Source of the DNA: a virus
DNA length: 64,000 nucleotides
IMG/VR virus record: IMGVR_UViG_3300021256_000065
Direction: 5' to 3' (one strand)
This document shows positions 1 to 47,604 of the stretch, piece by piece (position 1 is the first letter of the stretch; each line of letters opens with the position of its first letter). Below the pieces are notes generated by a model. The model made no database searches. It saw only the letters and a program-made list of their open reading frames with translations, and had not been told where the DNA came from. The translations under genes were made by a program, and so were the position numbers.

Positions 1-1745
1 ATATAAAGAACCCCTGTGCCTATTCTATTAAGACTAGTATTAAACACTACATCTTCTGTTCTGTTATACGCCCACCCTATATTTAGAAATTCATCTTGTA
101 TTTCTTCAATAAATTTGTTGTGATATTCACTGGGTTTTTGCTTTTCATCATATACATCCGATGCTATTGATTTAAATTCATTAACCACAGATGGATGAAT
201 AGTAACGGTAGATTGGCTACGCATTATTTCATATTTTGGATTACTATTACTTATATATTCGTATCTTCCATGATACTCACGAACATAAAACAATCCTATT
301 TGCGTACAACCGTCTGGTATTGTTATAGATACATATTGGAGCTTTCCAAAACCACTTATATCTGTTGTTGGCTCCTCAATCGGCTCTAAGTCATACTCTG
401 TTACATATTCAGATGAAAGATTTACTCTACCAGGAGAATCATTTCCGTTACCATCATACATTCCGATAATTGCTGAGCTATATTGGTCAGATAATGATGT
501 CTTTTTTATAGTAAACAAACCAAAATCATATAAATTAACAATGTCTCCTGCATTAACCGGAATTAAATCACTAATTGCATAATATGTATTTCGTAACGAT
601 TCTAACGGATTTGGAGTAACATCAACTAGACCTCCATTTCCCCAATAATAATTTTGAATATTTTCGTCATCGTTGCCAACATATATTGTTCTTGTATTGT
701 TTGAAATATAAATAGCATTTGCACCAATGTTTTCTCTTGCCTGAAACTTGTTTTCATCCGTTAAAGTTTGTGCAGTATTATATCTAACTGCCCCGGTTAT
801 AGTATCCGATGGGACAACCATGCCATCACTTCCAACAATAAGTGCTTTCCCTGCATTTTCTACGCCCTGTTGTTTATCAATTTTCCCGTTTCTTGCTACC
901 GTATCTTTTGCCGTTAATACATCAACTGTTTCATGACTTATTACCGTCATTTTTTCCAGTTTTGGCTCAAACACCTTATTAATCGTAAGTCCTTGAGCAA
1001 CTGTGATATGGATTTTATAGGTTGTTGTTTCCGGTACATCAAAAACAGCACCTTCTCCGATATCTCTAAAAAGCGCACCTCCGCCAGATGCATATCTGAT
1101 TGTAAGACTATATCCATCAGATGCGGCTCCACCTGTCGGGCATCCAGTAAGCCTGTATTTTTCTCCGGCAGTAAGCGGAATTGTCAACTCAGCCGAAGAT
1201 GACCTTATTCCAAAAATGATGCCTGTGGTATGAGTATTTGTTCCGACTGCAGAAATTGTTCCGTCATTGTTTTGAGTAAATACAACACCATGGTTCGTCC
1301 AACTACCTTCGCCAAGATTAAATTCTACTGGAGTATACTCATAAATATCTTTTGTTTCTGTATCTACAACTTCGGATATCTGTTCTAAACGTTCATTTAG
1401 TTCACTGAGTTCATCCCCGGTTTTCTTCGCATCTGCTGCCGCGCCCTCCGTTGTTAAACTTGAATCTACTATTACAGCACTTCCAACAGGAGTAACATAA
1501 GTATTCAGCCAATTAGTCACATCAGTGCTAATTTCATCTCTTAAATATTGCGCTAACGCTTCATCATCAATTTTTTCATTTAACTGTGCTTGCACAGTTC
1601 CTTTAGACATATCTATATTACCTAATATATCTACTAGATTGTGAGAATCATCCCATAAAATATACTCAGCTAATGTACTTATTGGTATCTCATCTGAATA
1701 AGTACCATCATCATACTTAATTCGAATAGCTGTTAATTTATTCAT
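1..1745 (-). CDS. Tail fibre / receptor-binding protein. 5' end is at 1745; the 3' end lies beyond the window start.
   Basis: The minus-strand frame is open from 1745 to 1 with no TAA, TGA or TAG. The ATG at 1743-1745 follows an AAAGGAGAA RBS. The N-terminus MNKLTAIRIKYDDGTYSDEIPISTLAEYILWDD...AAADAKKTGDELSELNERLEQI is paralogous to the N-terminus of gene 5554..8604. It is absent from the ORF track because it has no in-window stop. Confidence 0.55.
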   Translation of the reverse strand, partial: MNKLTAIRIKYDDGTYSDEIPISTLAEYILWDDSHNLVDILGNIDMSKGTVQAQLNEKIDDEALAQYLRDEISTDVTNWLNTYVTPVGSAVIVDSSLTTEGAAADAKKTGDELSELNERLEQISEVVDTETKDIYEYTPVEFNLGEGSWTNHGVVFTQNNDGTISAVGTNTHTTGIIFGIRSSSAELTIPLTAGEKYRLTGCPTGGAASDGYSLTIRYASGGGALFRDIGEGAVFDVPETTTYKIHITVAQGLTINKVFEPKLEKMTVISHETVDVLTAKDTVARNGKIDKQQGVENAGKALIVGSDGMVVPSDTITGAVRYNTAQTLTDENKFQARENIGANAIYISNNTRTIYVGNDDENIQNYYWGNGGLVDVTPNPLESLRNTYYAISDLIPVNAGDIVNLYDFGLFTIKKTSLSDQYSSAIIGMYDGNGNDSPGRVNLSSEYVTEYDLEPIEEPTTDISGFGKLQYVSITIPDGCTQIGLFYVREYHGRYEYISNSNPKYEIMRSQSTVTIHPSVVNEFKSIASDVYDEKQKPSEYHNKFIEEIQDEFLNIGWAYNRTEDVVFNTSLNRIGTGVLY

Positions 1746-2230
1746 TGATTTCTCCTTTCTAATTTATGCTATTTAAATAATCTAATATATTCATGATTAA
1801 CACACTAACATGCGGTTTTAGTCCTTCCATTTTGAAACTATGGATTTTTTTCACAATATTGTGTGTATTGTTCAATGTCATCTAATATTTGTTCAAAATA
1901 ATCTTTACTGTGACCCACATTAGAATATAACTCATCTGAGAATCTTAAAATGCGGGTTCTTGCGGTTGTTGCTTTATCCTACTAAATAGATGCTTTTAAT
2001 TTATCTATTTTTTCATTGGTTTCTGCAACAGCTTTTAAAATATCTTTTGTAATATCTTTTTTCTAATCATTTCTTTTTATAATAAATTGTATAAAGGCAA
2101 AAATGCCGCCGCTCCCGATTAGGAGAGCAAGAATGTTGAGGATTGATATTTGCAAATATTGATCACCTCCATTAGGGCAGCCTTAAGGCTGCCCTAACAA
2201 CTTTGTTGCTATTTTATGCGGTTTAAAATA

Positions 2231-5200
2231 TTAGTTAGTACAGAAACCAAGAACAATATAATAATTACTTTGGTCATAAAAAACAACAGAATCACTTACC
2301 GACATACACCATTGTTCTCTAACTGCATAACTTGTTCTTAACCAATAAATAATAGCTTGACCGTTTAGGTATTTTATACGTTTTGTTTGTCCATTTTCAT
2401 ATGTGTAATATCCAACACCTGTAGTCTCACTACCACTTCTATTGCTCACCATTTCATGACGTGACGGAATCCAAATATCTTCACTAGATTCTACATTATC
2501 GACAGATGCACCAGTTATATCTATAATATTTGAATATTTTTTAACTGTTACAATACCATTACGAATCGATTGAGGAATAAGTGGCATTATATCACTCATA
2601 ATATATGCACGAAGTTCAGATTTTGCGTATCCGCCAATTGCCCCAGTTCCCTATGTATATGGAGCTGAGTTTGAACCCATAGGGTTGAATCTGTGCGGCG
2701 TATTCAACGCCGTTTTGCTCAACCATGTAATGCCAGCTTTACCATTTCCATCAGCCTTGTCATCAGCGTTGAAAGCAACAATTTCCATTAAATGTTTTCC
2801 TTCAGTGCCTAAATCAAGCATCTTCGTGTCACCAACCTTGTAATCCGTTGCATAATTTGGATTAGCAAGTATGGTTTCCCAACTATCAGAGATCGTTTCT
2901 TGCTCGAGACCGAGGCAGAATCCAATAACTACAGCATTATCATTGCCTTTATTGCTATGATTAAAATCTCCTGTATCACCATCTACAGCTAATGCATCAT
3001 TAGAATTATAAGTATAGTTCTCTCTTAAACAATACCATCTTTTCCAACTTGCATATTGATAATCACTTCTTTTTCGCTTATCATCAGTATTAATTACTTT
3101 AGAATATACAATTCCTGCTGCTCTATCAGAAGCATAGTTACCTTCACCCTCTCCAATTTCTCTTGCAGAAGGAATCCATATATAATTATATACATAGTTT
3201 GTCTGATCATAATATTTTTTAACAGGATTAATATGAATTTTTATATTGGTACTAAATGAATTATATAATTCTGTGTTTAACATTACTGATAAAGAACAAT
3301 TGTTCCAAAGAGATTGACTACTACTATTACGATATTTATATTCCCCTTTAATGCATTTCATACTAATAAACGACAATGGCACAGTATTTTCATTTTTATC
3401 AATATCTAAATCCATCCCAACTATCTGCATATTGAATGTTCCATATGTAGATCCAAGATCAAGTGGCTTATAATTACCAAGTTTATATTTAGTTTTGTAC
3501 GTGCCATTCTCAATATTTGTAATAATAGTATCCCAACTATCTGTAATTTCAACTTCCTCTACTAAAGCTACAAAAGCAGCATATACGGTCTTATTACTTT
3601 GTATATTAGTAAGTGTAGCATTCGCACTACTAGAATTCATACTATTAGACCATCCTAAGAACTTAGTTTGATCAGCATTAGTAGGTGTTGTTCCAGTATA
3701 AGTTGCAGTATTACCTTGAATAACTTTCTTAGTTTGAAGTGTAGTAGCACCATCTTGTGACTTAAATGTTACAGTATAAACTGGTTTATACGTTGCGGTA
3801 TATGTTGTATTACCAGTAACTGAAGCAACTGTAGGTGTCCATGTAACAAATGGCGAACTATTTCCAGAAGGATCTACAGGTGTAGAACCATTGTAGGTAG
3901 GAGTTGTTCCATATGGCACGTTATTATCTGTTTCAAGAGTTGTACCATTCGAGTTCTTCCATGTTATCGTATATTTTCTAAGTGTATTACTATAACAAGC
4001 ATACACATTTCTATCTGCTACAACTGCAGTTAATGCATCACTATCAACTGTGTTATCATTAGTCTTTGACCACCCGGCAAAACTATATGTATACTGAGCA
4101 TCTTGTGCTTTGGTAGGTGTAGAACCACTATATGTAGCATTGCCGCCATCATTTACACTAACAGTAGTAAGTAATGTGCTTCCATTGTAAAAATATACAT
4201 TACTGCTAATATGTTGATATTCAATCTAAATATATGGATATCTAGCCTTCATCGCAGAATACCATGCTCCAGTAATTGTATCAAGTCCAGTAATTGTTCC
4301 AGATACAACAGCTGTATCAAGGTTATTACCCGCTTCATCTAATCCACGCATAGTATCCAAATAATCATAAAAATCTTCTACCTCATCCGTTGTTGAAACA
4401 GCCATGCTAAAACCAATTAATCTTACACGACTATTTGCAGGCATTTCCGCAAGTATATCATCAACAGGAATAAGGTTACTACTATTTTCAACTCTTAAAG
4501 TAGTAATCGAAGAATAATCATCATCTTCTATTTCAAAAGAAGTAAGTGCTCTCTGATTTAAAACTGTCAAATTCGTAATAGTTTTTGGAAGATGTAATAT
4601 TTTTAATACACCACCATTTGGTAAAGAGACACCCGCAATTTTAGTTCCTTCAAAATAAACATTTTCAATAATAGAACATCCTGATAAATCAACAGTAGTC
4701 TGCGTATGACCTTGCATTGTTGTATCACCAAAACCAGAACAATTTCTAACATCAACTGTTTTTAATAATACATTATTACCAAAGCTCATACTATACAAGT
4801 TGAAATTATCATAACTACTACTAGCATCTCCGACTTTTAATGCTTGCAATCTAGTTGCACTACTAATATCAATCTGTCCAACTTTTAAAGGAGATAAATC
4901 TCCAACATCCGCAAGCTGAGATGCACTATAAATATTAACAATATTACCATTCATCTATTGATAAGGACAAATCAATGTTACTGTAGTGTTGCGGGCCGCC
5001 CTTTCTTGTGTAATAGTCGCGTCCCATGCTACAGTAGCATAGATATCGGCATATGGTCTTACTGTAATATTTGCTGCGGCATATGGACGTAAAAAAATTG
5101 AGTCATTTCTTGCATCACCCGCCACATATTTTGAATCAATATATCTAAATCTATTATAGAGCCACCATTTTCTTTGTTCTTCTTTACTTCCAAGAAGCAT

Positions 5201-5557
5201 ATATAAATAGTTAGCATTATTTTCTATAAAAGGATTAATATATTTAAATTGAGCATCTTCATTAAAAATGGCTTCAGTCCATTTTCCTTGATGCTCTTCA
5301 AAAGCATTTTCTATAGCTTCATAGGATAACGCACCAGATGAACGCAAATTACGATACATAGTAGCTAATTCATCAGGGAACGCCGCCCTTATATTTTTCC
5401 AAATAACCGAGTCTTGCCCATTAAATATAGGCGCTCCGCCTTGCTGATGATCAATATCTTCTAACCTATAGTCAAAAACTAATTGACCATCATTGTTAAT
5501 TCCGATTGCTGTATCCATATCATACGGCAACCAGACCACTTTTTTCTTTACACTCAT
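2231..5557 (-). CDS. Tail-associated adhesin-like protein with LRR-like repeats and Listeria-Bacteroides (InlB B-repeat-like) repeats. Read through 3 in-frame TAG codons.
   Basis: ORF-track fragments 4955..5557, 4226..4954, 2651..4006 and 2231..2599 are all in one frame. They are joined by TAG at 4955-4957, 4226-4228 and 2651-2653. I translated 4007-4225 and found no stop. The real stop is TAA at 2231-2233. The ATG at 5555-5557 overlaps the TGA of the upstream gene (ATGA). Repeats such as ATYSGSTPTKAQDAQYTYSFAGWSK and NTATYTGTTPTNADQTKFLGWSN match the GYxFxGW pattern of List_Bact_rpt. The alternative that TAG-ATG at 4954/4955 is a true gene boundary is not excluded. Confidence 0.5.
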
Positions 5558-8500
5558 ATAGTAACCTCCGTGCCCATGAAGGATGGAAATGCGTTCTTTG
5601 CTCTGGAGTCAACCATTAAGAACAATTCAGTAAACAAATAATAAAATAATGTCGATTGAAGTTCCATATATTCTCCAGCTTCTGCGCGGAATTTTGCAAG
5701 TCTATATTCAGCAGTATCTTTAGTATATGTTACTCCATCATAAGTAACAGATGCAGGTAAATTAGCATTTGTTGCTTGAGTTGTGTCAGTACTAACCGCC
5801 CATTCAGCAAAAGAAGCAAGTTGTTCTGTATCAACATATGGGGGATCAGTATCAGGATAACGAGCCTCAAAATCTGATTGCCAAGCTGTACCAGAGAAAT
5901 CTGCGCTTTGCCATAACGCACGACCAGGAGCATTGTTTAAAGTCTCCCAAGACTCATCATCGCCGCTTAAACCAAACACATCTTCTGTAGATTTATCATT
6001 ATTAAAATTATATTTACCTAAGAAAGTAGTTTCTCCTGCTGAAGTATTATTCCAAAAGATTATCATAGGAAATCCTTCAATCCCTTGTCTTACCTTACTA
6101 TTTTCTACCTGCGCGGGAGTCTTGTATGGACAGGCCGCATTATATAAATTAACAAGTTCAACATTGTTTGCGCCTTCTGATGAAGCAAAGTCAGCTTTCA
6201 TACAGAAAGTCTTTACTGGAATACTATTAGCACTCATAGCATATTTAGATTCTTGCGTACCATTCTGCATCCTAAATCCGCCATTAAACTTCATTTTATA
6301 GTTTTTACGAGGATAATACTGTGAAGATGTACCTTGAACATCAATTTGACAATCTTCAAAAGTAAAACTCTTAGAAGGAGACATTGGATTAACAAAAGAA
6401 CCACTACAAGTTTTCTTATCTCCTTTTGATTGAGGAAGCTCTGGACAAGAAATAATCATATATGGCAATTCACTTGGTAAATTTGAAATTACAATATTAC
6501 CATATTCATCAAATACATTATTTCTAACATATCTGTTAAGCATTAATCCACCATCTTGTGTATCAGCAATCCAGTTATTTACAACCTGGAAACGGGTTAA
6601 GTCATTATCATAAATACGAATATTATAAATATCAATAGTACAATCATTAGAACCAATACTAATATTTACTGGTGTCTGTTGTGAAAAGTCATCATCCGCA
6701 GGATACTGAACAGCACCAGAAACAATACCATTAATATAAATTAAAAGCATACGATGTTCAGTTCTTTTTTCACACACAAAAGCAATCCTTACATGTTCAT
6801 CTTCTTTATATTGAGTACCTATTTCTGACTGCTCAGATTTAAGATATGCTTTTTGCGCGGTGACTGAAAATCCTCTGTTTCCGCTCATACAAGACAACAC
6901 AACAGAATCATAATCAAGTACATTTTTAGTAGCAAACTAAAACTCGATAGTCTTACCAGTTGTTCTAAAGTCTTGAGCAAATGGCTTATATGGAACAGTT
7001 ACTCGCGCATCGCCAGATACACGAAGTACAGTAACACCATCCGCATCTTTTTGCCATCCATCAGATGAGAAATTAAAGTCCGTAAGTGTCGCAGATATAT
7101 TATTATACGACCAAGTTTCAGGATGTTCCTCTTGATTACTCCTTCCTTGTGAAGTTAGATGAAGTACAAGATTCTCTGTTTCAGCTTCGACATCTATTTG
7201 AGATTCTATAATATTCAAAGTTATTGTTTTAGATTTTGTTCTTGATCCAGTTCCACCTTCAATACGAATTGTTAATGTGCCTGCATTATTAGCTCGATAT
7301 GAATAAACCTGCTCTGTTCTATCGACTGTCTGAGTTGATACAAGAGTATTATTTATATATATCTTAGCTTCTGTTGTAAGCGCAGTCGGATCGTATATTG
7401 TAAATGGGATTGGAATTGTTGCATATTGATTTTCACTTGTTTTATCAAAAGAGCTTATAATAATAATATTTTCATTTCCTTCTTCAAGGCAAATAAATTC
7501 ATAATATAATTCATTTGATCTTACCAGTTCTCCATTAACTTCTGCATCAAAATATACTCTTAAACTATGCGAACCATGACTTTGTGCAGGGATAGAATAA
7601 GAAACCTGTCTACCAGAAACAGTTGTTGATTGAGTTGGTAAAACAGTTCCATCCAATATAAAATGAACTGTTTTAGTAACTGCACCAACAGGTGTATAAT
7701 TAAATTGTATTAATCCAGTAAAAGGTGCGGTTGTCACAAAAGAACTGCTAATTGTTAATGCCACAACAGTAACACTATAATTAATAGATCTCATTTGCCC
7801 ATATATATCTGAAACTTGAACTTTTACAGTATTAGATCCATTTGATAAATATTCAGAAACATCAACAGTAACATTTCCTTGAGAAATTTCTCTCGAAGTT
7901 TTAAAAACATTATTTACTAAAATTCTTAAATTACCATTACCAGTTGCAAGATCATCTTCAATAGAAGTCCAGTTAAAACTGATCTAACAAGGTGCTCCTG
8001 CGGAAATTGTTTTAGATAGCCAACCTGAGGTATTTGTAACGGTAAGGACTGCAGAGGTTTCACTACCTCCTCCTCCACCGCCACCTCCGCCAGAAAATGG
8101 GCCCAGCGGACCTACAACAATTTCACCATCAGATACCATATACAAAAATCCATCTTCTACATACGCGTCATCAATCTTACTTGTTAAAGAAACGCCTAAA
8201 TTATTTAATGAATTTTGTAATTCTTGAATTTCTGCGTTACTTGACTATATAGCATCACCTGTTGCTTTTGCATCTGCGGCCGCCCCTGATATATTTAAGG
8301 ACGGATCTATGATTACTAAATCTCCGCTAATTGGATTTATATTAGTATCTAACCAATCTGTAACCTCATCAGCAATTAAATTAGCAACATAATATCTTAA
8401 CTGTTCTATATCAATTTTCTCTGTAAAAAGAGTATCTAACTGATCCTGAACAGAACCTTTCGTATTTATATCAATTTCGCCAAGGACATCTACTAATGTA

Positions 8501-8604
8501 TTTTTCTTATTCCATTTTACATACTTAGATAAAATACTTATTGGAATCTATTTAGAATAAGTTCCATCTTTATATTTTATCTTTATGGTTGATAAAGTTT
8601 CCAT
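5554..8604 (-). CDS. Large tail protein (fibre or baseplate-associated), ~1016 codons, read through 4 in-frame TAG codons.
   Basis: ATG at 8602-8604. In-frame TAG at 8548-8550, two further TAGs in the N-terminal ~300 codons, and TAG at 6937-6939. Terminates with TGA at 5554-5556. Fragments 6937..7794 and 5554..6900 share this frame. Contains a poly-Gly linker (GPLGPFSGGGGGGGGGS). The N-terminal ~110 aa are paralogous to gene 1..1745. Confidence 0.5.
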
Positions 8605-12306: not shown

Positions 12307-12720
12307 TTATTCTTTATTACATAAAATAGATTGTAATTGCATTATTTCTCTTGGTGTGAGGATATCATATTTATCATCACTGTAATCAAATATAGAAATA
12401 TCATCTAGTGTAGATAATTTAATTTCTACTTCTATATTTAATAATTCATTAATTTCTGCAATATAATCACTCATATGTTCATCATCAACTTGGGGGATTC
12501 CTGTTGCAGTATAAATATATTCACCTTTGTCATTTTTAATAATAAAATCTTTGTAAGTTTCAATAATTTTATTCAACATTTTGGTATAACAATCTACATC
12601 ACCTTGAATATTTAATGCATTTTTAACAATTAAATATGAGATTTTTTGTGGTAATTTTTTTGTAGAATATTTATTTAATATTTGCATCATGCTAAGTAAT
12701 TCTATATTTTTAATTTTCAT
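12307..12720 (-). CDS. Hypothetical protein.
   Basis: ATG at 12718-12720 after AGAGGA. TAA at 12307-12309. No TAG. Ends at a bidirectional terminator. Confidence 0.4.
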   Translation of the reverse strand: MKIKNIELLSMMQILNKYSTKKLPQKISYLIVKNALNIQGDVDCYTKMLNKIIETYKDFIIKNDKGEYIYTATGIPQVDDEHMSDYIAEINELLNIEVEIKLSTLDDISIFDYSDDKYDILTPREIMQLQSILCNKE

Positions 12721-15700
12721 ATACAATATCCTCTAATTCTTTTATTCTTTTTTGTTGTTTTTGTAATACTGCAATAATAGGAGCAATAAATTGATCATAT
12801 GACAAACCCCATGATAATAAATTATCATCAACCTATTCACCAAAATAAGGTTCAACTTCTTCATCAGGATCATTACTTTTATAACTTGCAGCTACTACTG
12901 ATAAATTTTGATTTAAATTTTTACACACTTTTGCAACATCTTGTGCAATAAATCCCATACGAGTTCTTCGATGATCTCCCTTTTTCCACATAAAAGAAAT
13001 TGGCTATAAAGACATTATAAAATCTTCTGCAAAATCAATCTATCCTAAAATATCTTTTAATTTTCTATCTGAGGATGTATCTACATTTAAACAAAAAACA
13101 TTATTAAATCTATAACCGTCCTGAGTATCTCTTCCTAAATCTACTACTGCTGTATCATGTGTAGGGACTAATCGTGGACTTTGTCCAGATATTCTAATTT
13201 TAGTTTTTTGTGTATTAAATTCTATATGACCAGAGTATTTATCAGGTTTGTTCATTACTCCAGTACTTAATCTTACATCTCCATATGCATCCTATATTTC
13301 AATATCATGTTCCGTTTGATCGTCATTATATCCAACATATAAATTTAATCCTAAATAACTAGTTAGCTGAGTAGCGCCACCAGATCCTTTTAAATTTAAA
13401 CTACTCTTTGGTGTATATAATTGAATATTACCTGTTGAAGGACGTCCTGGCGAATCAGAACCAACCATTACATCCAAATTACCATTTACCCATATCGTTG
13501 AAGACTGATCGCAAAACATCCCCCATTTATGGCTAGAAAAACTCCAAGGAGTTGAATTAGAATAATCAAGTGTGGGAGGCACATATCCAAGATAAATTCC
13601 TTGTGTGCTACTTGACGTAGAGGTTTGATCATTTCTTATTCCTATGTAAGATCCATGATTTGTAATTGCATAAAATGAATTTTTATATAAATCTGGTGTA
13701 CTAGAAACATACAATTTATCAGGTCTTATTTCAACTAAAGAGCCATATGTTAATCCTCCATATGATTGAGGTGGAGTCGTAGTTAAATCTGGATTTGGAT
13801 TATAATCTTCAAAACTAAAACCACCTATATGACCAGTGCCATCTGCATTAAGAGAAAAAGCATTATTACTTGACTTTATTCCATTATTTAATAAATCTAA
13901 TCCACCAATTTTACCTGCAGAAGCATAAATAGTTCCATATATAATTGCATTACTAGCAGTTAATAATCCATTACTAGAAACAACAAAAGTGGTTAATGAA
14001 GAATCTTCTTCCCAATATGTAGTATTTGGCGGCTTGTTACTTTGCGCAGAAGTATGCGCTAAAATACATTTATAAATTTTTCCATTGTCACGAACAATAT
14101 CATCTATAGCATATATGGCATCTTCCTACCAAAGCGGCAATGGCCCACCAACCACGCCATTTTCTTTAATGTACCCGCTCAGTTCATTTTGTAAGCCATC
14201 AACTTTTTCAATAGGAATAGTTGCATTATTTCCCAAATTTAAAGTAGTTGCAGTAATAACACCAGATATATTTGCTTCTTCGGCATGTAATATTCCTTGT
14301 GAATTAACTGAGAACTTACCATTTCCAAATCTGATTTCAGGAGCAGTTAAATTAATTAATAATCCAGCTCCAGCCTATCCTGATGATGTATAATCAATAG
14401 GTAATCCATCCTATCCATAATTAGTAGATTCCCAAAAATTATGACTATAAATCATAGCTTTTTGTGCGATTGGATCTATAATAATTTGACCATTATCTGC
14501 TTTACCAAAAATAGCAGAGCCATTCTAACTATTTAAAAAGAATGTGCGGGCGCCACTATTATACCCAAATAAACCAGACTATGGCTCGCTTTTATCTGGA
14601 GACCGTACCTATCCCATAAGCACGCCAGTAAAACTATTATCATTTTCTTTCCGTCCTGCGCCGACCTGTGGACTAAGAATAAAACCGCCTTCATCATCAA
14701 TTTGAACACTATTGCCATCCCATTCATTTATATGAGATAAGCCATATTTATTTAATAAAAAATGAATAGGAACATTTATTTTACCAATTATTACATTATT
14801 CTGTTTATATATACAACAAACTGCATTATTAACACATAATCCATTATATTTTGATTTTGGACGAATTATACATTGATTTTTTTCATATCCATTATTTGGA
14901 AGAATCTCTAATAAAAGAGAATTAATTGCCGCTCCATCTTTAGATAAATAATTTCCAATAACAGATGGTTCATAAGAAATTGCATGGATACCAGAAACCA
15001 GTGAAATATCTTCCCAAGTGTTATCAATAGATTCTTCACAAATAAATTCAAAAGGACTGGCATCGTCATACTGCGGTGAAATACCATCTGAAGTATATAT
15101 TACATACCTAAATCCAGTATAATCTTTTAATTTTACTCTATATTTTTCATCACTAGTCCAAGCTGTTACTATAGGAATTGTACCATAATAAGTTTTGCTT
15201 TCCCAATCAATACTACATTTAATAATATTTGCTAAAGGTGTATTTAAATTAGAATCTAAATGATCTCCAGTATATTTAATTTGCCCATTATTTGCATTTA
15301 CTATTTCAAAAGCAGATGCATCAGAGTATGTATTATTATATTTATTTTTTAACACACTCCAAATGACACTTGAAGGCTGGGTTAAATTGTCTTGAGCAGT
15401 ATCTGTCATAGAATTACCTTCCCATACCAATTCTCCACTATGCCATAATTGTGCCTTAAAAAATTTATAACTATTATTAATAAGAAGTTCAGTTTCTGCG
15501 GCGGAAGTTCCTAATCCATAGTTTAAAATATACTTATTTCCAGCTTTAGTAATCATTGGAGCCAATGGAGGAACGCTCATTGTTGTATTTGGAACTAATT
15601 TTACTATATATTCAGTTCCATTTGTACCAGGCTCTCCCTGCTTAGCAAAAGTAAAGTTGGTTTCCGCAGATAAACTTAACCCTTTATATCTTACTGTTAA

Positions 15701-17755
15701 TTTTATTTGATTTTTTTGTTTTTGAATATAATATCTTTGTGAAATATTATAAAACAAAGTTGGTTTATCATCATAATATCTATAATTTTCATCTTCATCA
15801 AAGTCTAATCCATTTTCCTATGAATCGACTAACATAGTATTTGTTTTAGGAAATTCCCATTTAATTCTGCAATTATTTATATTTTCCAAAATATCTTCCT
15901 AAATAGGCTGACCTAAATTGTCATATATTGCAAAACTAAGCGGCAAAATTTCTTGCGGCGAGTCCAGACTCTTACTATTTGGAGCAACGCCATTTTCATT
16001 ATATTGAAAAACTTGTGTACCATTATTAATAACAAGAGAATAAAGATCTTCTCCACTTAAAGTATTTTCTAAAGTTATTGATGGAGTACCTAATAAAATA
16101 CCATTCTCATTAACGACAGTACATTTAAAGGTTCTACTATCTGTAATATCATTGATTTGTACATTATAGATTTTATTGCCTTCTACTCTTTGAATAGAAT
16201 TAAAAGCTTTAACATTATTCTATAATGTAGTTAAATTCTCTTTCTACGCATTTTCAAACTTAGTTCCTGAAGCAATCGCATCCTAAAGATTCGTTAATGC
16301 AGTAACCGCTGCAGTATATGCAGTATTTTCTGATGTAGTTTCTGGCAATTCTTCAAGCACCTAATTGTCAGATACATACGCCCAATAGTAATGATAGTTC
16401 TGAGGCTATGTTCCATTAACCTTACAAGTTAAAGTTGGATGTCCAATGTCATAATAAAATTTTGTACCATTACTTGATTCTATTGTCAACTATGGTGTTT
16501 CTGCACATAAATTCTTAATATTAACCTATTTAGATGCGGTGTTTCCATTATAAACAACTACAACTTTAATTTTATTGTCACTTACGGTTGCCGCGGTGAA
16601 ACTCATTTTATATATATTCCCCGCAGGTACCCATTCTATAATAGCATTAGGATCATTAGGAACAGTAGGATCGGCATCAATAATATTACTTTGATTTAAA
16701 CACTACCAACCTCTCCCTAAATGTTTATTATAATATCTATTATTAGCCATGACTTGATTATTTTCTCTTCCCCAATAGAAAGAGAAATTTTTATCAATCG
16801 CTACTTCTTTTCCTTTAATTCTAACTTTTGCGGTAATTGTTTTATAATCAGCTGTTGTAGAATCATCTTTAAAAATAAGCCCTTCTGGGACAGAAAGAGA
16901 AATAGAAAGTCCATTTAATTCAGATTCAGATAATTTTGAAGTTCCAAAAAACTTCAAATTAGTAATTTCTATATCCCCTGTTTCTAATCGTCTATCTGTA
17001 ATAACTCCATTAGCACCAGGGAATTCCTTATTGAAAATCTCTATAGACTCAATACGAATAAAATTCTATCCATCGATTTTAAAATATTGTGATTGTTCTG
17101 TCCCATATGCCAATCTATATGGGTTATCTTTCATGTTATCTTCATTGATTGTATATGAACGAATAACCTCTTGGTTAGAAGTATTATCTAAAAATCTTAA
17201 ATTATAAGTGATACCATAATGACCTCTAGTCTGTCTTTCAGGCGCGATAGAGGTTTTAAAGGTTGCGGCAACCTTAATAGAAGAAGATCGTCTTATATAA
17301 TAAGCTAAGGCCAGATCATCTAATGAAATATCACTAGGTTCTCCATATTGATAAATTGTATATTTATAATCTCTATTTAATGTATTTAAATAAAATTTGT
17401 CAATATCATTAACATTAATGCAATTAGTACCATTAATATCATAAACTGCCTAATTGTCTAACTAACTAATATAACTTACCCCAGACCGCGTAGTTGAACC
17501 TAAGATAGTCTTATCTTTTGACATATCATTGCCTGGAACAAGAATATTAACATAAGAGCCATTAGTATATGTTGTATCTATATTATTAGAATAAGCATAT
17601 ATAATAGCATCTTGATAGCGGCATCTATATTTTCCGATAGACGCGTCCTCACATGAAATAATCTGCGCTTGGATTGTTGTATTATAATTAGCTTTTTCTA
17701 CTTTTGAATTTGCTAATAATTCAATAGCATCCAAAATCGTCTAATTTACATTCAT
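12710..17755 (-). CDS. Tail fibre protein (~1680 codons) with a C-terminal intramolecular chaperone / peptidase S74 auto-processing domain. About 25 in-frame TAG codons.
   Basis: ATG at 17753-17755 after AAGGAGGAAATTATAC. Fragments 17462..17734, 16703..16957, 14609..15757, 13292..13714 and 13040..13255 are all in one frame and all end in TAG. I hand-translated 13715-14608 and 12710-13040 and found only TAG. Stop is TAA at 12710-12712. The C-terminus TSSDRKLKDILG*IDFAEDF...MGFIAQDVAKV...LSYDQFIAPIIAVLQKQQKRIKELEDI matches the endosialidase-type chaperone domain (SDxxLKxNI ... GxIAQE ... coiled-coil tail). Confidence 0.65.
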
Positions 17756-18060: not shown

Positions 18061-21000
18061 TTAATTTCTTAATGCTCTTTGAATTGCCATATTCGCAAGT
18101 TCATAGAATGCATCTTCAATTTCTTTTCTAGTATTAACATTTGGAAATACTGCTTCAATATTCACAGTTTGTTCAATACTTTCACCATTAGTATTATCAA
18201 ATAAATTACTAAAACCGCCTTTGATATTATTTGCTCTTGAGTATAAAGAACCTTCTAATGAAGTCTTTAATTCCTCTAAGATAATAGCCATAGTGCTAAC
18301 TCGCTCATTTAATCTATTTATTCGTTCATCACTTGATAATGAATCCATTGTAGCATCTTCAAAGATTTGCATCATTCCAGATAATTGTGAACCATACACT
18401 GTACTATCGGCTTGATCTAATCCATTAAGAACCTGATCTTTTGCGGCATCCCAAGTACCAAGTCCAATAGATTTATCATCTATTTTATTAAAATCATTTG
18501 TATCATTTGCGGATTTCAGATTTGTTTGCTGAAGGAGATCATGTATAGTACCACTTGTAATCATTGCATTTTTAGTAACTTCTTTATAAGCTTCTGCAAG
18601 AGAATGAATATAATCTCTTAAACTAGCAACTTTTGTCATTTCTTTATCCATGTTTGTCATAAGAGCATCATTAGCAGTAATTAATTTACTAGTCTATTCA
18701 GCTAAAGCACTAACACCTTCTTTTGTTTTTTCAAAATCAGTTCCCGCGCTTTCCGCAGTTTCTTTTACATCATTTTTATATTCTTTAGATGCTTCACCAA
18801 CTTTTTCAAAAGCCTACTGACAAGTTGGAACAAAACCGCCCTCTTTAGTCATAGCATCCATCATTGCCTGAATACCACTATCCCAAGTAGGAACTAAATC
18901 TTTCATTATTAAGTCTTTTTCTTCAATGGATAAATTCTTATAATGTTTTGCATCTTCATTATTAAGTAACGCATAATCTTGTAATGCTGAATCAGTTAAA
19001 TTACCTCTAATAACTTCATTCTAAGCAAGTTTACCATTAATATATTCTGCATACTGCTGTTGTAATAATGCAGCCTATCTAGCTTGATCTTCCTAACTCT
19101 TTGACATATCAGACATAATTGCTTTATACTAAGATTGAAAATCTTTCCAAGCCTGTAATGCATCAGATAAATTAGAATTATATCTTTCTTTATCAAAGTT
19201 ATATAAATCATTATTAAGCTAAGCTAATCTTCGCTGAGTCTATAAAATATCATCATCATCCGCAATATATTCATATGAATAGTTGCCTTGAGAATCTCTC
19301 TTTAATCTCATAGTAGTTTTTGCAGCTTGTGCATCTTCTAATGCAATTCTGGCTTGTTCTAATTCCAACAGCTTCTGAGCACGCTCGACATCATACTCAG
19401 TTAACTTATCTTTATTTTCAAGATTAGTTAATTGTTCATCCATCAATCGTTTTAATGCCTGTTGATTTTTTAAATCTTTAGTATCATTAATAGCCTTATT
19501 AAACTATCCTCTTAAATCTTGAAGCGCAAAAGCAGCATTAATAGTATCATAATACTCGTCTGCATTTTTATTCAACAGATCCCATTCTTTTTCAACAAAA
19601 TCAGAGCCTTTTCCGTCACTAATTCTTCTATCTAACTCATCAAAGATTTTATTAATAGAATTAATGTATTTATCTTGAATAGTTTGAATAGATTGTCCAA
19701 TCATACTATTTAAATTGCCAATAGTCTAACGATAATGTTGTTCAAACTTTTCTGCGGCATTGGTATCTCCTGCGTCAACGGCGGCCTGCCATCTTTCTTT
19801 CCACCACGCCGCCTGTTGCCTTAAGAAATCTATTTGCTTATTAGAATTTTCATTAAGCTAAGTATAATATTTATCCATCGCCTCATAGTTTTGATCACCA
19901 TATAACAATGATAATAAATCCATATCATGAGTTAACAACTATTCTACAAAACCATAATTCTACATTTGTTTATTAAATTGATTATCAATTTCATCAATAG
20001 TTGAAAGATATGCCTAATCAACTTCATCAATAGAAGATAACATCCCTTCTAACTGATCTTGTAATGATGCTAAATCAGTTTTTAAATTTTCTAAGGCTTT
20101 TTCTTTATCCTTACCATAAATGTCAGAACTTTCACCTCTATTAATTTTTTCAATTTCCGCTTGAGTTTTGATTAATTGATTTGTTATTGTTTCAATCGAG
20201 CCTGCTGTATCACCGTTACCAAAATATGAGAAGAAATCTTTACTACTCTTTGCGGCGTCCGCAAATATTTTATCAAAGTTGCTATCTTTAACAACATCAG
20301 CTTTATCTATTACATTACGATAAAAATCATTCCAATCTCTTTGAGCTGCGCTCATATCAAGATGAACATCAATTGTTGTTCTAAATCTCTAAACATTTTT
20401 TTCAATTCTTTCTTGCTCTGCTTCATTAATATCATCTTTTGAGTCTTCAATCGCTTCTCTTAACTCGTCATAATCTTTTATTTTATCTTTTAAATTCTAT
20501 AGACTATCACTAGCTTTATTAATTTGCTTATCAAGTTTCTATAATCTTTCTTTTAATTTATCTTTTTTATTTTTATTTGTTTCTTTATTATATTCTTTAA
20601 CTAATTTATTATATTTATCAGTTTTCTTATTAACCTAATCTTGCTGTTTACCAACTATTTTCATATAATTGGTAATATTACCATAAGCATCAAAAGTTAC
20701 TCCAAGCCCTTTTAATGCTTTTTGCTGAGAAGCTAAATCTTTCTCTTGAAGTTTTAATTTTTCCTCAAGTTTTTTCTTCTGCTCTTCTAACAGTTTTGAT
20801 TGCTATCTTAAATTATCTAAAAGATCTTTACCATATAAATGGTCTTGCTTCTTTTGTGCGCGGTCAAGGTTTCGATTGATTTTTTCAATTTGGATATTTA
20901 TATCATGATAAATATCTCTTTCATCTTCAATCTTCTTTTTCTTATCTTTTTTTCCTTTATCAGGTTTTGCAGTAGATCCTTTACTGCCGCCTTTGCCACC

Positions 21001-47383: not shown

Positions 47384-47517
47384 AGAAAATTTTTATATAA
47401 TATAATTGTAAATAAGATGAATAGTTACGAAGAGTTGTAGTCGGAAGCAAAGAAAACAAAAATTAAAAATAATATTTATTTCACCTGTTATTTTTCTTGA
47501 TTTTTTAAAAAATTTTT

Positions 47518-47526
47518 GATATAATA
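47518..47526 (+). promoter_or_regulatory. Extended -10 promoter (TGATATAAT). A weaker TATAAT lies at 47396-47401.
   Basis: AAAAAATTTTTGATATAATAAAAAT. Confidence 0.45.
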
Positions 47527-47604
47527 AAAATACAGATGATAAATATAAATTCATCTTAATTAAATAATAAACAAATATATATATAATTACAAGGAGAAAA
47601 AAAT

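What the first reader, a model, noticed from the sequence alone, without database searches (positions are those of the whole stretch)
2231..5557. Internalin-like tail protein: LRR-like region followed by Listeria-Bacteroides (InlB B-repeat) modules
Residues around 4226-4954 show leucine-rich-repeat-like periodicity. The segment 2651-4225 contains at least three ~70-aa repeats ending in a GYxFxGW-type motif (…TYSFAGWSK, …KFLGWSN, …PFVTWTP). Such repeats are typical of surface adhesins. They are unusual as the receptor-binding part of a phage tail and suggest binding to a cell-wall or glycan receptor of a Gram-positive host.
Basis: partly seen in the sequence, partly recalled or inferred. Interest (0 to 1): 0.5.

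Follow-up and report, generated by a model that had tools for sequence, protein, structure and literature searches.

The report
Recoded, split phage tail-fibre gene
The four apparent ORFs are one 1,108-residue distal tail-fibre protein of a gut Clostridia phage that reads TAG as an amino acid (apparently glutamate rather than the expected glutamine). Its LRR-like and InlB-B-repeat-like modules are real but ordinary stalk modules in front of two lectin-like heads.

Summary
Window 4229-4954 encodes an LRR-like solenoid. Window 3572-4207 encodes three ~65-75-aa β-grasp repeats of the Flg_new / InlB B-repeat type. No HMM hits the window copy directly; the support comes from homologous segments and confident AlphaFold models.

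Window 2231-5557 (minus strand) is one 1,108-codon gene, interrupted only by three in-frame TAGs that uninterrupted homologues read straight through. The whole late-gene block uses TAG as a sense codon, including 85 TAGs in the tape-measure gene.

The gene starts inside a CotH-kinase-like domain. The first two-thirds of that domain end the upstream gene (5554-8604). Relatives carry either a fused gene or a split in any of the three relative frames, always with stop, Shine-Dalgarno and ATG. This indicates gene fission, not frameshifting.

The C-terminus is two DUF6273 (C-type-lectin-fold) domains, which are the likelier receptor binders. The family has more than 2,300 homologues and occurs mainly in Clostridia phages and prophages, so it is not unusual.

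A by-product is the main point of interest. TAG aligns with conserved glutamate, not glutamine. The clade's tRNA(CUA) lacks glutamine identity marks and resembles the phage tRNA-Glu.

The parts
2231..5557 (-). Gene B: distal tail-fibre protein, 1,108 codons plus a TAA stop (2231-2233). It is one reading frame with three in-frame TAG sense codons.
   Evidence: Translation. Homologues of 1,077-1,123 aa cover 100% of it without interruption. TAG sits at the same positions in close relatives.
5565..5569 (-). GGAGG Shine-Dalgarno sequence, 7 nt upstream of the ATG of gene B. That ATG overlaps the TGA of gene A as ATGA (5554-5557).
   Evidence: Sequence. The same stop / Shine-Dalgarno / start arrangement is found in all 24 split relatives.
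4955..4957 (-). In-frame TAG (codon 201 of B), at the boundary between the CotH-like part and the LRR-like part.
4226..4228 (-). In-frame TAG (codon 444 of B), at the boundary between the LRR-like module and the repeats.
2651..2653 (-). In-frame TAG (codon 969 of B), inside the second DUF6273 domain.
4958..5557 (-). C-terminal third of a CotH-kinase-like domain (B residues 1-200). It contains the invariant PYDMDT motif (5510-5527).
   Evidence: PF08757 is hit only when the C-terminus of A and the N-terminus of B are joined (26 bits, curated cut-off 23.8). 22 of 23 fused homologues hit CotH. Invariant columns are listed.
4472..4954 (-). LRR-like β-solenoid (B residues 202-362).
   Evidence: AlphaFold2 pLDDT 92.1. 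The top 50 Foldseek matches are all LRR proteins but have E ≥ 0.02. 3 of 23 homologues hit LRR_4, best E 1.8e-4.
4229..4471 (-). α/β subdomain following the solenoid (B residues 363-443).
   Evidence: DSSP on the model: H164-170, E176-185, H189-200, E216-222, H230-238.
3980..4207 (-). Flg_new / InlB-B-repeat-like β-grasp repeat 1 (B residues 451-526; motif YTYSFAGW).
3788..3976 (-). Flg_new-like repeat 2 (B residues 528-590; motif PFVTW).
3572..3781 (-). Flg_new-like repeat 3 (B residues 593-662; motif KFLGW).
2909..3553 (-). DUF6273 domain 1. The fold is C-type-lectin-like according to the literature.
   Evidence: PF19789, 38 bits against a cut-off of 23.5. Fold and role as a DGR target: PMC10743442, PMC11792537.
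2234..2908 (-). DUF6273 domain 2, the C-terminal head.
   Evidence: PF19789, 36 bits.
5554..8604 (-). Gene A: proximal tail-fibre protein, 1,016 codons with four in-frame TAGs (8548-8550, 8245-8247, 7984-7986, 6937-6939). Its parts are an N-terminal anchor domain (8218-8604) shared with the next fibre gene, a Gly8 linker (8068-8091), β-rich domains, and the N-terminal two-thirds of the CotH-like domain (5557-6537, including DSRAKN at 5593-5610).

Best explanation
Window 2231-5557 is a single gene for the distal half of a long tail fibre. The phage is a large SPβ/phAss-like siphovirus of gut Clostridia that decodes TAG as a sense codon in its late genes.

The fibre is made from two polypeptides. 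Gene A (8604-5554) supplies the virion-anchoring N-terminus, β-rich shaft domains and the first two-thirds of a CotH-kinase-like domain, including the catalytic-loop motif D-x4-N. Gene B is translated from its own Shine-Dalgarno sequence and ATG, which overlaps A's stop as ATGA. It supplies the last third of that domain (the D-x-D motif). B probably docks onto A by completing the CotH fold.

B then continues as an LRR-like solenoid, a small α/β domain, three Flg_new/InlB-B-repeat-type β-grasp modules, and two C-terminal DUF6273 (C-type-lectin-fold) domains. The LRR and β-grasp modules most likely act as a conserved stalk or accessory binding region. The exchangeable DUF6273 heads most likely recognise a cell-surface glycan or protein of the Gram-positive host.

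Shown: the gene structure, TAG read-through, domain composition, the split, and the family's distribution. Inferred: non-covalent A-B assembly, which module binds the receptor, and whether the CotH-like site is enzymatically active.
For: One frame with only TAG interruptions.

More than 2,300 homologues exist, and many of ~1,100 aa cover 100% of B.

Treating TAG as sense raises the total length of long (≥150-codon) ORFs in the window from 38.4 to 56.4 kb. It yields ORFs of 3,121, 1,695, 1,126 and 1,025 codons, while the replication genes on the + strand contain no TAG.

Close relatives keep TAG at the same sites.

A and B hit consecutive parts of one PHROG profile. CotH is detected only across the junction. 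Some relatives have A and B as one ORF.

Of 77 related loci, 53 are fused and 24 are split. The splits occur in relative frame 0, +1 or -1, always with a stop, a Shine-Dalgarno-like sequence and a start; one has a ~100-nt spacer.

Flg_new assignment. LRR-like assignment. DUF6273 in two copies. Its lectin fold and role as a DGR target.

The closest relative is 91% identical over only the N-terminal 53% of B and then has a different DUF6273-bearing C-terminus.

A shares its first ~125 residues with the neighbouring fibre gene (48% identity, E 9e-32).

The family is found mainly in Lachnospiraceae, Oscillospiraceae, Ruminococcus, Blautia and Eubacterium genomes.

CotH domains fused to hypervariable C-type lectin domains have been noted in phages but are unstudied (PMC8008677).
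Against: No direct HMM hit for LRR or Flg_new in the window protein.

The Foldseek LRR matches are not significant.

The CotH match is weak (26 bits) and no solved CotH structure is found by sequence profile.

No structure was predicted for the DUF6273 or CotH parts here. The lectin fold is taken from the literature on other family members.

Nothing here shows that A and B associate, which module contacts the host, or that the protein is in the virion.
Confidence: 0.78

Rival explanations
1. One reading: an internalin-like adhesin in which the LRR region and the Flg_new repeats are themselves the receptor-binding part of the tail.
For: LRR and B-repeat modules are binding modules in InlB and other surface proteins. 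The folds are supported. The closest Foldseek matches of the repeats are surface-binding proteins of Gram-positive bacteria: R. gnavus Ig-binding protein, YwfG, SHIRT and MUB.
Against: These modules are internal and conserved (91% identity to the closest relative). The C-terminal DUF6273 part is the one exchanged. DUF6273 is a lectin-fold domain repeatedly targeted by DGR hypermutation in phage receptor-binding proteins. The internalin cap-LRR-inter-repeat architecture is absent.
Confidence: 0.2
2. A and B are joined into one ~2,124-residue polypeptide by a programmed -1 ribosomal frameshift, or the split is an assembly error.
For: B is in the -1 frame relative to A. The CotH-like domain runs across the junction, and some relatives have a single ORF.
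Against: There is no X XXY YYZ slippery heptamer in the ~50-nt stretch where both frames are open. The A-run lies after A's stop codon. In split relatives the relative frame is 0, +1 or -1, but a stop, a Shine-Dalgarno-like sequence and an ATG/GTG are always present. One relative has a ~100-nt spacer and three have an in-frame stop followed by a new ATG. The junction sequence is near-identical (one substitution in the 104 nt shown) in two independent assemblies.
Confidence: 0.08
3. The TAGs are real stops, so the region holds four separate small genes or a decayed pseudogene.
For: Under the standard code the region reads as ORFs of 200, 242, 451 and 122 codons. No tRNA is present in the window.
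Against: All pieces are in one frame and collinear with uninterrupted homologues. TAG positions are conserved in relatives. The window contains 85 TAGs in the tape-measure ORF and 24 in the tail-protein ORF. A tRNA(CUA) is present in the same phage species.
Confidence: 0.02
4. TAG is decoded as glutamine (NCBI code 15), as in all previously described TAG-recoded phages, and the glutamate signal is an artefact of E/Q similarity.
For: Published surveys report only TAG→Gln in phages. The distantly related phage phAss-1 was assigned Gln. Q is the second-best or third-best fit in the likelihood tests. The tRNA(CUA) of the window's own species has a 5-nt variable loop, unlike most of the phage tRNA-Glu genes parsed.
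Against: See the novel case. Where TAG falls in a strongly conserved column of the tape-measure core or gene A, that column is E and never Q, and E is also the best overall fit in the tail protein. The 'Q' residues in those columns checked in a relative are TAG codons written as Q by the gene caller. TAG exchanges with GAA, not CAA/CAG, among close recoded relatives. The tRNA(CUA) lacks the weak 1-72 pair (U1-A72 or A1-U72) and the G73 that the phage tRNA-Gln genes have.
Confidence: 0.3

Closest known systems
[quoted passage not shown] 2021 (PMC8008677) and in DGR surveys
   Same: A CotH-like domain lies upstream of C-type-lectin-fold (DUF6273) domains in a phage structural region of gut Firmicutes phages. 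Such proteins are described as unstudied.
   Different: Here the CotH-like domain is split between two genes. An LRR-like solenoid and three Flg_new repeats are inserted between CotH and the lectin heads. There are two tandem DUF6273 domains. No DGR template/variable repeat pair was found in the 64-kb window.
Listeria InlB (LRR + inter-repeat region + B-repeat) and the Pfam Flg_new / List_Bact_rpt family
   Same: Each repeat is a ~70-residue β-grasp unit with the aromatic-x-F/W-x-G-W motif. It superposes on the InlB B-repeat (2y5p, target-normalised TM about 0.7). Twelve of 30 orthologous segments hit PF09479.
   Different: The window copy falls below HMM detection. There is no signal peptide / cap / inter-repeat / GW-anchor architecture. 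The protein is part of a phage fibre, with the repeats in the middle of the chain.
DUF6273 receptor-binding proteins of Faecalibacterium and gut phages (DGR targets; PMC10743442, PMC11792537)
   Same: Both C-terminal domains pass Pfam's curated threshold for DUF6273. They occupy the C-terminal position and vary between relatives.
   Different: The domain is tandemly duplicated. It is attached to a very long multi-domain fibre rather than a 230-300-residue protein. No DGR was seen.
TAG-recoded gut phages (genetic code 15; Borges et al., Peters et al., phAss-1)
   Same: In-frame TAG is confined mainly to late and structural genes. Replication genes are compatible with the standard code. A tRNA(CUA) sits in a large phage tRNA array. 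The hosts use the standard code.
   Different: The amino acid at TAG fits Glu better than Gln. The suppressor tRNA lacks the Gln marks seen in the same phages' tRNA-Gln genes.

Membership tests
Pfam Flg_new (PF09479, Listeria-Bacteroides repeat / InlB B-repeat) | Significant match of the protein itself to the family HMM | tested here: not met
   No hit at E ≤ 10 in Pfam or NCBIfam, for the whole protein or for the isolated 224-residue segment.
Pfam Flg_new (PF09479) | Orthologous segments of close homologues match the HMM (transitive homology) | tested here: met
   12 of 30 aligned homologous segments (51-94% identical to the window copy) hit PF09479, best E 1.1e-10. Three hit Flg_new_2. The precomputed PF09479 annotation is present on P0002, P0026, P0034, P0079, P0096 and P0101.
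Pfam Flg_new (PF09479) | β-grasp fold of ~70 residues superposable on the InlB B-repeat | tested here: met
   Model pLDDT 94.4, three units of four strands. Against 2y5p chains A, C and D: target-normalised TM 0.64-0.71, rmsd 3.1-4.0 Å, probability 0.99-1.00. The Foldseek E-values are modest (0.08-0.26) because the target is a single 72-residue domain.
Leucine-rich repeat (Pfam LRR clan) | Match to an LRR HMM | tested here: inconclusive
   The window copy gives none. Three of 23 homologues hit LRR_4 (best E 1.8e-4). Single weak hits occur to LRR_8, LRR_1, LRR_6 and LRR_EndoS. The PF13306 annotation on four homologues was not mapped to this segment.
Leucine-rich repeat (Pfam LRR clan) | Solenoid of short parallel β-strands with a ~20-25-residue period | tested here: inconclusive
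   The model has pLDDT 92.1 with about 13 short strands in 160 residues. All 50 best PDB matches are LRR proteins, but the best E is 0.021 and TM is about 0.3. A profile search against PDB sequences gives only non-significant LRR hits (E 0.25-0.35).
Internalin family (Listeria InlA/InlB type) | N-terminal cap + LRR + Ig-like inter-repeat region, secreted and wall-anchored | tested here: not met
   The LRR-like part is preceded by a CotH-like half-domain and followed by an α/β subdomain containing helices, not an Ig-like inter-repeat region. The gene lies in a phage tail module between the tape-measure/tail genes and a second fibre gene. A signal peptide or anchor was not specifically searched for.
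CotH kinase family (PF08757) | HMM match above the curated threshold | tested here: met
   Met only for the joined A C-terminus plus B N-terminus: 26.0 bits against 23.8, E 7.9e-6, profile positions 157-321 of 322 spanning the junction. Neither gene hits on its own. 22 of 23 fused homologues hit, best E 3.6e-9.
CotH kinase family (PF08757) | Conserved catalytic-loop D...N and metal-binding D-x-D motifs; kinase activity | not testable with these tools
   D310, R312, K314, N315 (DSRAKN, in gene A) and D336, D338 (PYDMDT, in gene B) are invariant in 23 sequences. Their equivalence to CotH catalytic residues rests on my own knowledge of CotH, not on a structural alignment. No PDB hit was obtained by sequence.
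DUF6273 (PF19789) | HMM match above the curated threshold | tested here: met
   Two copies, 38.0 and 36.0 bits against a cut-off of 23.5. The whole protein scores E 2.4e-16.
Stop-codon-recoded phage, genetic code 15 (TAG = Gln) | In-frame TAG in genes whose homologues are uninterrupted, with a gain in coding length when TAG is treated as sense | tested here: met
Stop-codon-recoded phage, genetic code 15 (TAG = Gln) | TAG positions align with glutamine in standard-code homologues | tested here: not met
   Tape-measure core columns: E 67/119, 83/119, 97/120, 110/120. Gene A codon 556: E in 60 of 62. Tail protein: E is the commonest residue at 13 of 19 columns. Log-likelihoods: E -77.0 against Q -81.9, and E -49.4 against Q -53.2. 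Conserved Q columns never carry TAG.
Stop-codon-recoded phage, genetic code 15 (TAG = Gln) | Phage-encoded suppressor tRNA(CUA) with glutamine identity | tested here: not met
   A tRNA(CUA) exists in a contig that is 95-99% identical in nucleotide sequence to the same phage species (L361 13529-13602; Rfam tRNA 68.3 bits). It has G1·U72 and A73. The tRNA-Gln(UUG) genes of related phages have A1-U72 or U1-A72 and G73. In three relatives the suppressor follows tRNA-Glu(UUC) and tRNA-Glu(CUC) and shares their 4-nt variable loop and 18-nt D-arm. No isotype-specific tRNA model was available, so the identity call is by inspection.
Programmed -1 ribosomal frameshift site | Slippery heptamer in the overlap and a conserved frame relation | tested here: not met
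   No heptamer upstream of A's TGA. The frame relation varies (0, +1, -1) among 24 split relatives, each with its own Shine-Dalgarno sequence and start.

The most novel reading that the evidence does not exclude
In this clade of large SPβ/phAss-like Clostridia phages, TAG is decoded as glutamate rather than glutamine. The decoder would be a phage tRNA(CUA) with a Glu-type body.

Proposed mechanism (my inference): the host GluRS charges the tRNA, and the GatCAB amidotransferase does not convert it because it lacks the U1-A72 pair.

If so, the 'code 15' translations now written into public protein databases for these phages carry the wrong residue at every TAG. That would be about 1.7% of residues in the late proteins here. 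Published surveys state that only TAG→Gln and TGA→Trp are seen in phages.

A second, smaller novelty is that a kinase-like CotH domain is split between two fibre genes at a loop between its catalytic-loop and metal-binding motifs. This split arrangement is seen in many relatives.
Probability: 0.6. Interest if true: 0.8.

Novelty: new variant of a known kind. Interest (0 to 1): 0.55.

Why it matters
As an 'internalin-like tail protein' the finding is ordinary. It is one member of a very large, uncharacterised family of modular fibres of gut Clostridia phages.

It matters for three practical reasons.

1. Annotation. Standard-code annotation shatters this gene and its neighbours, so domain- and host-prediction pipelines misread them.

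2. Architecture. The fibre consists of an anchor, a split CotH-like domain, an LRR-like solenoid, β-grasp repeats and exchangeable lectin heads. This gives a concrete map for engineering or predicting the host range of phages that infect Lachnospiraceae and Oscillospiraceae, for which few isolates exist.

3. Genetic code. If TAG really means glutamate here, this would be a reassignment that published phage surveys do not report. It would also mean that code-15 translations of this clade in public databases are systematically wrong. It is directly testable by proteomics on existing faecal samples.

Tried and rejected
- Direct Pfam, NCBIfam and PHROG scans of the window protein for LRR and Flg_new found nothing.
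- Sequence and profile searches of PDB with the repeats, the LRR segment, the DUF6273 pair and the CotH region gave no significant hit.
- blastn of the fibre region against GenBank phages gave one weak hit only.
- An apparent 400-900-nt insertion at the A/B junction in some relatives had suggested an intein or intron. Motif anchoring showed it to be a BLAST HSP artefact.
- A DGR search for a template/variable repeat pair found only promoter-like repeats.
- Inferring the TAG amino acid from the closest homologues was rejected, because their gene caller had written Q for TAG ('translates_to_query: no').
- Inference from the three TAG sites of gene B alone fails, because they lie in variable linker or loop columns.
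A TAG-free stretch was used instead.
- The tRNA search in the window and in 60 fibre-region loci found no suppressor.
It was recovered from a 95-99% identical ENA contig instead.
- Overall pairwise identity of the suppressor to other phage tRNAs was uninformative: 0.53-0.70 to Glu, Gln, Lys and Asp alike.
- The tape-measure protein of phAss-1 has TAG at columns conserved for S, R, D, E and Q. Column conservation alone can therefore mislead in more distant phages.
Full report
**1. What is at 2231-5557**

On the minus strand the four ORFs listed under the standard code (5557-4955, 4954-4226, 4006-2651, 2599-2231) lie in one frame. They are separated only by TAG codons, at 4955-4957, 4226-4228 and 2651-2653. 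The frame ends at a TAA at 2231-2233.

The upstream ORFs behave the same way. From an ATG at 8604 to a TGA at 5554-5556 there is one 1,016-codon frame ('A') with four in-frame TAGs.

Treating TAG as sense across the window raises the total length of long (≥150-codon) ORFs from 38.4 to 56.4 kb. It produces ORFs of 3,121 codons (tape measure, 85 TAGs), 1,695 codons (tail protein with a Peptidase_S74 end, 24 TAGs), 1,126 and 1,025 codons. Treating TGA as sense gives no comparably long ORFs. Treating TAA as sense inflates ORFs indiscriminately in this AT-rich sequence (99 ORFs, longest 863 codons) and is uninformative.

The + strand block from about 28 kb encodes topoisomerase II subunits, an NAD-dependent ligase, a DnaB-like helicase, a Dda-like helicase, an RNA ligase and similar proteins. 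These genes contain no TAG.

A database search with the 1,108-residue product ('B') returned more than 2,300 homologues. Many are 1,077-1,123 aa long and cover 100% of B without interruption. The two closest relatives have TAG at the same codons.

This is one gene read through TAG.

**2. The observation**

*Repeats.* Three tandem repeats are present at B residues 451-526, 528-590 and 593-662 (window 3980-4207, 3788-3976, 3572-3781). They carry the quoted motifs.

The window copy gives no hit to Flg_new (PF09479), Flg_new_2 or TIGR02543-type models, even at E ≤ 10.

Two other lines of evidence support it:
- Of 30 aligned homologous segments (51-94% identical to the window copy), 12 hit PF09479 (best E 1.1e-10) and 3 hit Flg_new_2.
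- An AlphaFold2 model (pLDDT 94.4) shows three four-stranded units. Its Foldseek matches are tandem β-grasp surface proteins, including the InlB B-repeat (2y5p: target-normalised TM 0.64-0.71, rmsd 3.1-4.0 Å, probability ~1.0; InlB392 entries at 26-28% identity).

*LRR-like segment (4229-4954).* There is no direct HMM hit. Three of 23 homologues hit LRR_4 (best E 1.8e-4). The confident model (pLDDT 92.1, pTM 0.88) has about 13 short strands followed by an α/β subdomain. All 50 best PDB matches are LRR proteins, but at non-significant E-values (≥ 0.021) and TM about 0.3.

I accept 'LRR-like solenoid' as a description of the fold, not as family membership.

**3.

*A CotH-like half-domain.* B residues 1-200 are the C-terminal third of a CotH-kinase-like domain. 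PF08757 is detected only when the end of A and the start of B are joined (26.0 bits against a cut-off of 23.8, profile positions 157-321 across the junction). Of 23 fused homologues, 22 hit CotH (best E 3.6e-9). A and B also match consecutive parts of one PHROG profile (positions 501-1305 and 1532-1993 of phrog_14959).

*Two lectin-fold heads.* B residues ~669-883 and 884-1108 are two DUF6273 domains, each above Pfam's threshold (38 and 36 bits). The literature describes DUF6273 as a C-type-lectin-fold globular domain. It is a recurrent target of DGR hypermutation in receptor-binding proteins of gut phages (PMC10743442, PMC11792537). CotH domains fused to hypervariable C-type lectins have been noted in phages as unstudied (PMC8008677).

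No DGR-type repeat pair exists in this window.

*Module exchange.* The closest relative is 91% identical over only the first 53% of B and then has a different, shorter DUF6273-bearing end. Dozens of homologues show the same 53-54% coverage. The break therefore falls at about residue 590 of B, near the end of the second β-grasp repeat, by my arithmetic; it was not mapped residue by residue. The lectin heads are thus the exchangeable, specificity-determining candidates. The LRR and β-grasp modules are the conserved stalk.

**4. The A/B junction**

B's ATG overlaps A's TGA as ATGA (5554-5557). B is in the -1 frame relative to A and has a GGAGG 7 nt upstream.

Some relatives have one continuous ORF across this point (P0117, P0014 and others). 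Among 77 IMG/VR loci anchored on the DSRAKN and PYDxDT motifs:
- 53 are fused in frame.
- 24 are split: 3 in frame with a stop and a new ATG, 7 in the +1 frame, and 14 in the -1 frame.

Every split locus has a stop, a Shine-Dalgarno-like sequence and an ATG/GTG. One has a ~100-nt spacer. No slippery heptamer precedes A's stop.

This pattern fits gene fission with independent, probably coupled, initiation. It does not fit programmed frameshifting.

The split lies in a variable loop between the invariant D-x4-N motif (in A) and the invariant D-x-D motif (in B). If the domain is functional, its active site is assembled from two chains. That the two chains dock by completing the fold is my inference.

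A also carries an N-terminal ~125-residue domain shared with the next fibre gene downstream (window 1745→1; 48% identity, E 9e-32). This is consistent with a common attachment site on the baseplate.

**5. Host and phage**

Homologues occur mainly in Lachnospiraceae, Oscillospiraceae, Ruminococcus, Blautia, Eubacterium and related Clostridia genomes and MAGs. These include the isolates Zongyangia hominis, Hespellia stercorisuis, Dysosmobacter and Sporofaciens, and Blautia producta in the protein database. Some related loci end at a tRNA or tmRNA gene, which may mark prophage integration sites.

The tape-measure protein is distantly related to those of phage phAss-1 (31% identity) and of the Enterococcus EF1 and Bacillus SPβ-type phages. 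A recoded relative carries YomU/YomV/YomW/YonB-type structural genes.

The window is 99.75% identical over its last 1.2 kb to IMG/VR contig 3300021399_000007 (133,873 bp).

The inference of a Gram-positive host is supported. The claim of unusualness is not.

**6. Which amino acid is TAG?**

This question arose in passing but is the most interesting result.

The Q found at TAG positions in the closest database homologues is not evidence. Those proteins do not translate from their DNA under code 11, and the codons are TAG.

*Independent evidence:*
- In the conserved TP901 core of the tape measure, TAG columns show the following in 119-120 homologues. Column 185: E 67, D 20, Q 12. Column 223: E 83, D 25. 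Column 261: E 97, Q 11. Column 282: E 110, Q 10. Column 344: G 56, E 50.
- The Q entries cluster in the closest homologues. In the one checked, they are TAG. Where the window has TAG, that relative has GAA.
- Gene A codon 556 aligns with E in 60 of 62 standard-code relatives.
- In the tail protein, against 150 representatives, E is the commonest residue at 13 of 19 TAG columns.
- Column-profile log-likelihoods favour E over Q in both proteins: -77.0 against -81.9, and -49.4 against -53.2.
- Conserved-Q columns never carry TAG (0 of 13 in the tape-measure core and 0 of 9 in the tail protein). In the tape-measure core, 2 of 12 conserved-E columns do. In the tail protein, none of the 8 conserved-E columns does.
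- Among close recoded relatives, TAG swaps with GAA (2 sites), GAT (2 sites), AAA and TTA, and never with CAA or CAG.
- Between two recoded tape measures, the partners of TAG are E 19, K 11, Q 8.
- In the A / fibre-2 paralogue pair, TAG19 aligns with E.
- Codon usage also fits. GAA+GAG+TAG is 77.5 per thousand in late genes, against GAA+GAG at 75.3 per thousand in early genes. CAA+CAG+TAG would be 60.7 per thousand against 30.2.

*tRNA evidence.* No tRNA lies in the window. The same phage species has a tRNA array beginning about 22 kb beyond the window's right end, by my mapping of the walked loci onto the contig. In a contig 95-99% identical to it there are 14 tRNAs confirmed by Rfam, including tRNA(CUA) (68.3 bits).

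That tRNA has G1·U72, A73, U8-A9 and an 18-nt D-arm. The tRNA-Gln(UUG) genes of related phages have A1-U72 or U1-A72, G73 and a 16-nt D-arm. Several of the phage tRNA-Glu(UUC) genes parsed have G1·U72, A73 and an 18-nt D-arm.

In three relatives (79% identical sigma factor) the gene order is tRNA-Glu(UUC), tRNA-Glu(CUC), a 130-nt gap, then tRNA(CUA). There the suppressor shares the 4-nt variable loop AGAC with tRNA-Glu(UUC).

*Caveats.*
- E and Q are similar residues.
- The identity call on the tRNA is by inspection.
- The suppressor of the window's own species has a 5-nt variable loop.
- Overall tRNA identities are uninformative.
- In phAss-1, TAG sits at columns conserved for S, R, D, E and Q.
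- Published surveys report only TAG→Gln in phages. UAG→Glu is described in ciliates in papers held in the searched library (from titles and term counts only).

I put TAG = Glu at about 0.6.

**7. Verdict**

The fibre itself is a new member of a large, known-but-unstudied kind. The split CotH-like domain and the apparent TAG→Glu decoding make it a new variant worth a proteomic test.

Noticed in passing
Window 1-28000 (minus-strand late genes); strongest at 18061-27417 and 12710-17755: TAG sense codons align with conserved glutamate, not glutamine, in standard-code homologues. They exchange with GAA in recoded relatives. Database homologues show Q there only because their gene caller used code 15.
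   Followed up: yes
L361 13529-13602 (ENA ERZ28612969 scaffold_4852, 95-99% nt identity to the window's phage); L282 13151-13505; L284 13108-13461: The phage tRNA array contains a tRNA(CUA) lacking the glutamine marks (it has G1·U72 or G1-C72, and position 73 is not G). In three relatives it directly follows tRNA-Glu(UUC) and tRNA-Glu(CUC) and shares their 4-nt variable loop and D-arm length.
   Followed up: partly
L361 14894-14966: A second tRNA, confirmed by Rfam at 53.5 bits, has the anticodon UUA according to ARAGORN, which would make it an ochre suppressor. Yet TAA is the usual stop codon of this phage's genes. This is unexplained.
   Followed up: no
Window 5554-5610 and 77 related loci: The CotH-like domain is split between two genes at a loop between its D-x4-N and D-x-D motifs. 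Relatives are fused or split in any of the three relative frames, each with its own Shine-Dalgarno sequence and start.
   Followed up: yes
Window 1-1745 (minus strand, runs off the window start): A second fibre gene with no TAG in its 581 visible codons. Its first ~123 residues are 48% identical to the N-terminus of gene A, suggesting a shared anchor domain. It gives no Pfam hit.
   Followed up: partly
Window 1742-2182 (minus strand): A small ORF between gene B and the second fibre gene. It has six in-frame TAGs and a hydrophobic N-terminal segment (ISILNILALLIGSGGIFAFIQFII). It gives no Pfam hit, and its function is unknown (perhaps a holin-like or assembly protein).
   Followed up: no
Window 18061-27417 (minus strand): A tape-measure protein of 3,118 residues with 85 TAG codons (2.7% of codons). 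It has a TP901-type core (PF10145 in homologues).
   Followed up: partly
Window 28056-28109, 29197-29250, 33292-33345, 35133-35186, 47497-47550, 60055-60108 and others on the + strand: A repeated promoter-like consensus, TTGAyttttt...TGTTATAAT (extended -10), lies upstream of the TAG-free early and replication genes. The late minus-strand block has only one weak (71%) match to one of these repeat families, at 2052-2093.
   Followed up: no
L263 18571-19518 (= IMG/VR contig 3300021399_000007, about 86 kb): A full-length sigma-70-family sigma factor gene (regions 1.2, 2, 3 and 4) sits inside the phage tRNA array. It is highly conserved: thousands of homologues were retrieved, and most of the 120 best listed are 73-82% identical.
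   Followed up: no
L083 (phage phAss-1, OQ749652.1 2411-9736): In the phAss-1 tape measure, TAG falls at columns that are 90% or more conserved for S, R and D, as well as E and Q, in homologues. This is hard to reconcile with any single decoded amino acid. The paper reports three tRNA(CUA) genes in that genome.
   Followed up: partly
Window about 27400-28100: A divergent switch point: GC skew changes sign and the coding strand flips between the TAG-rich late block and the TAG-free early block.
   Followed up: no
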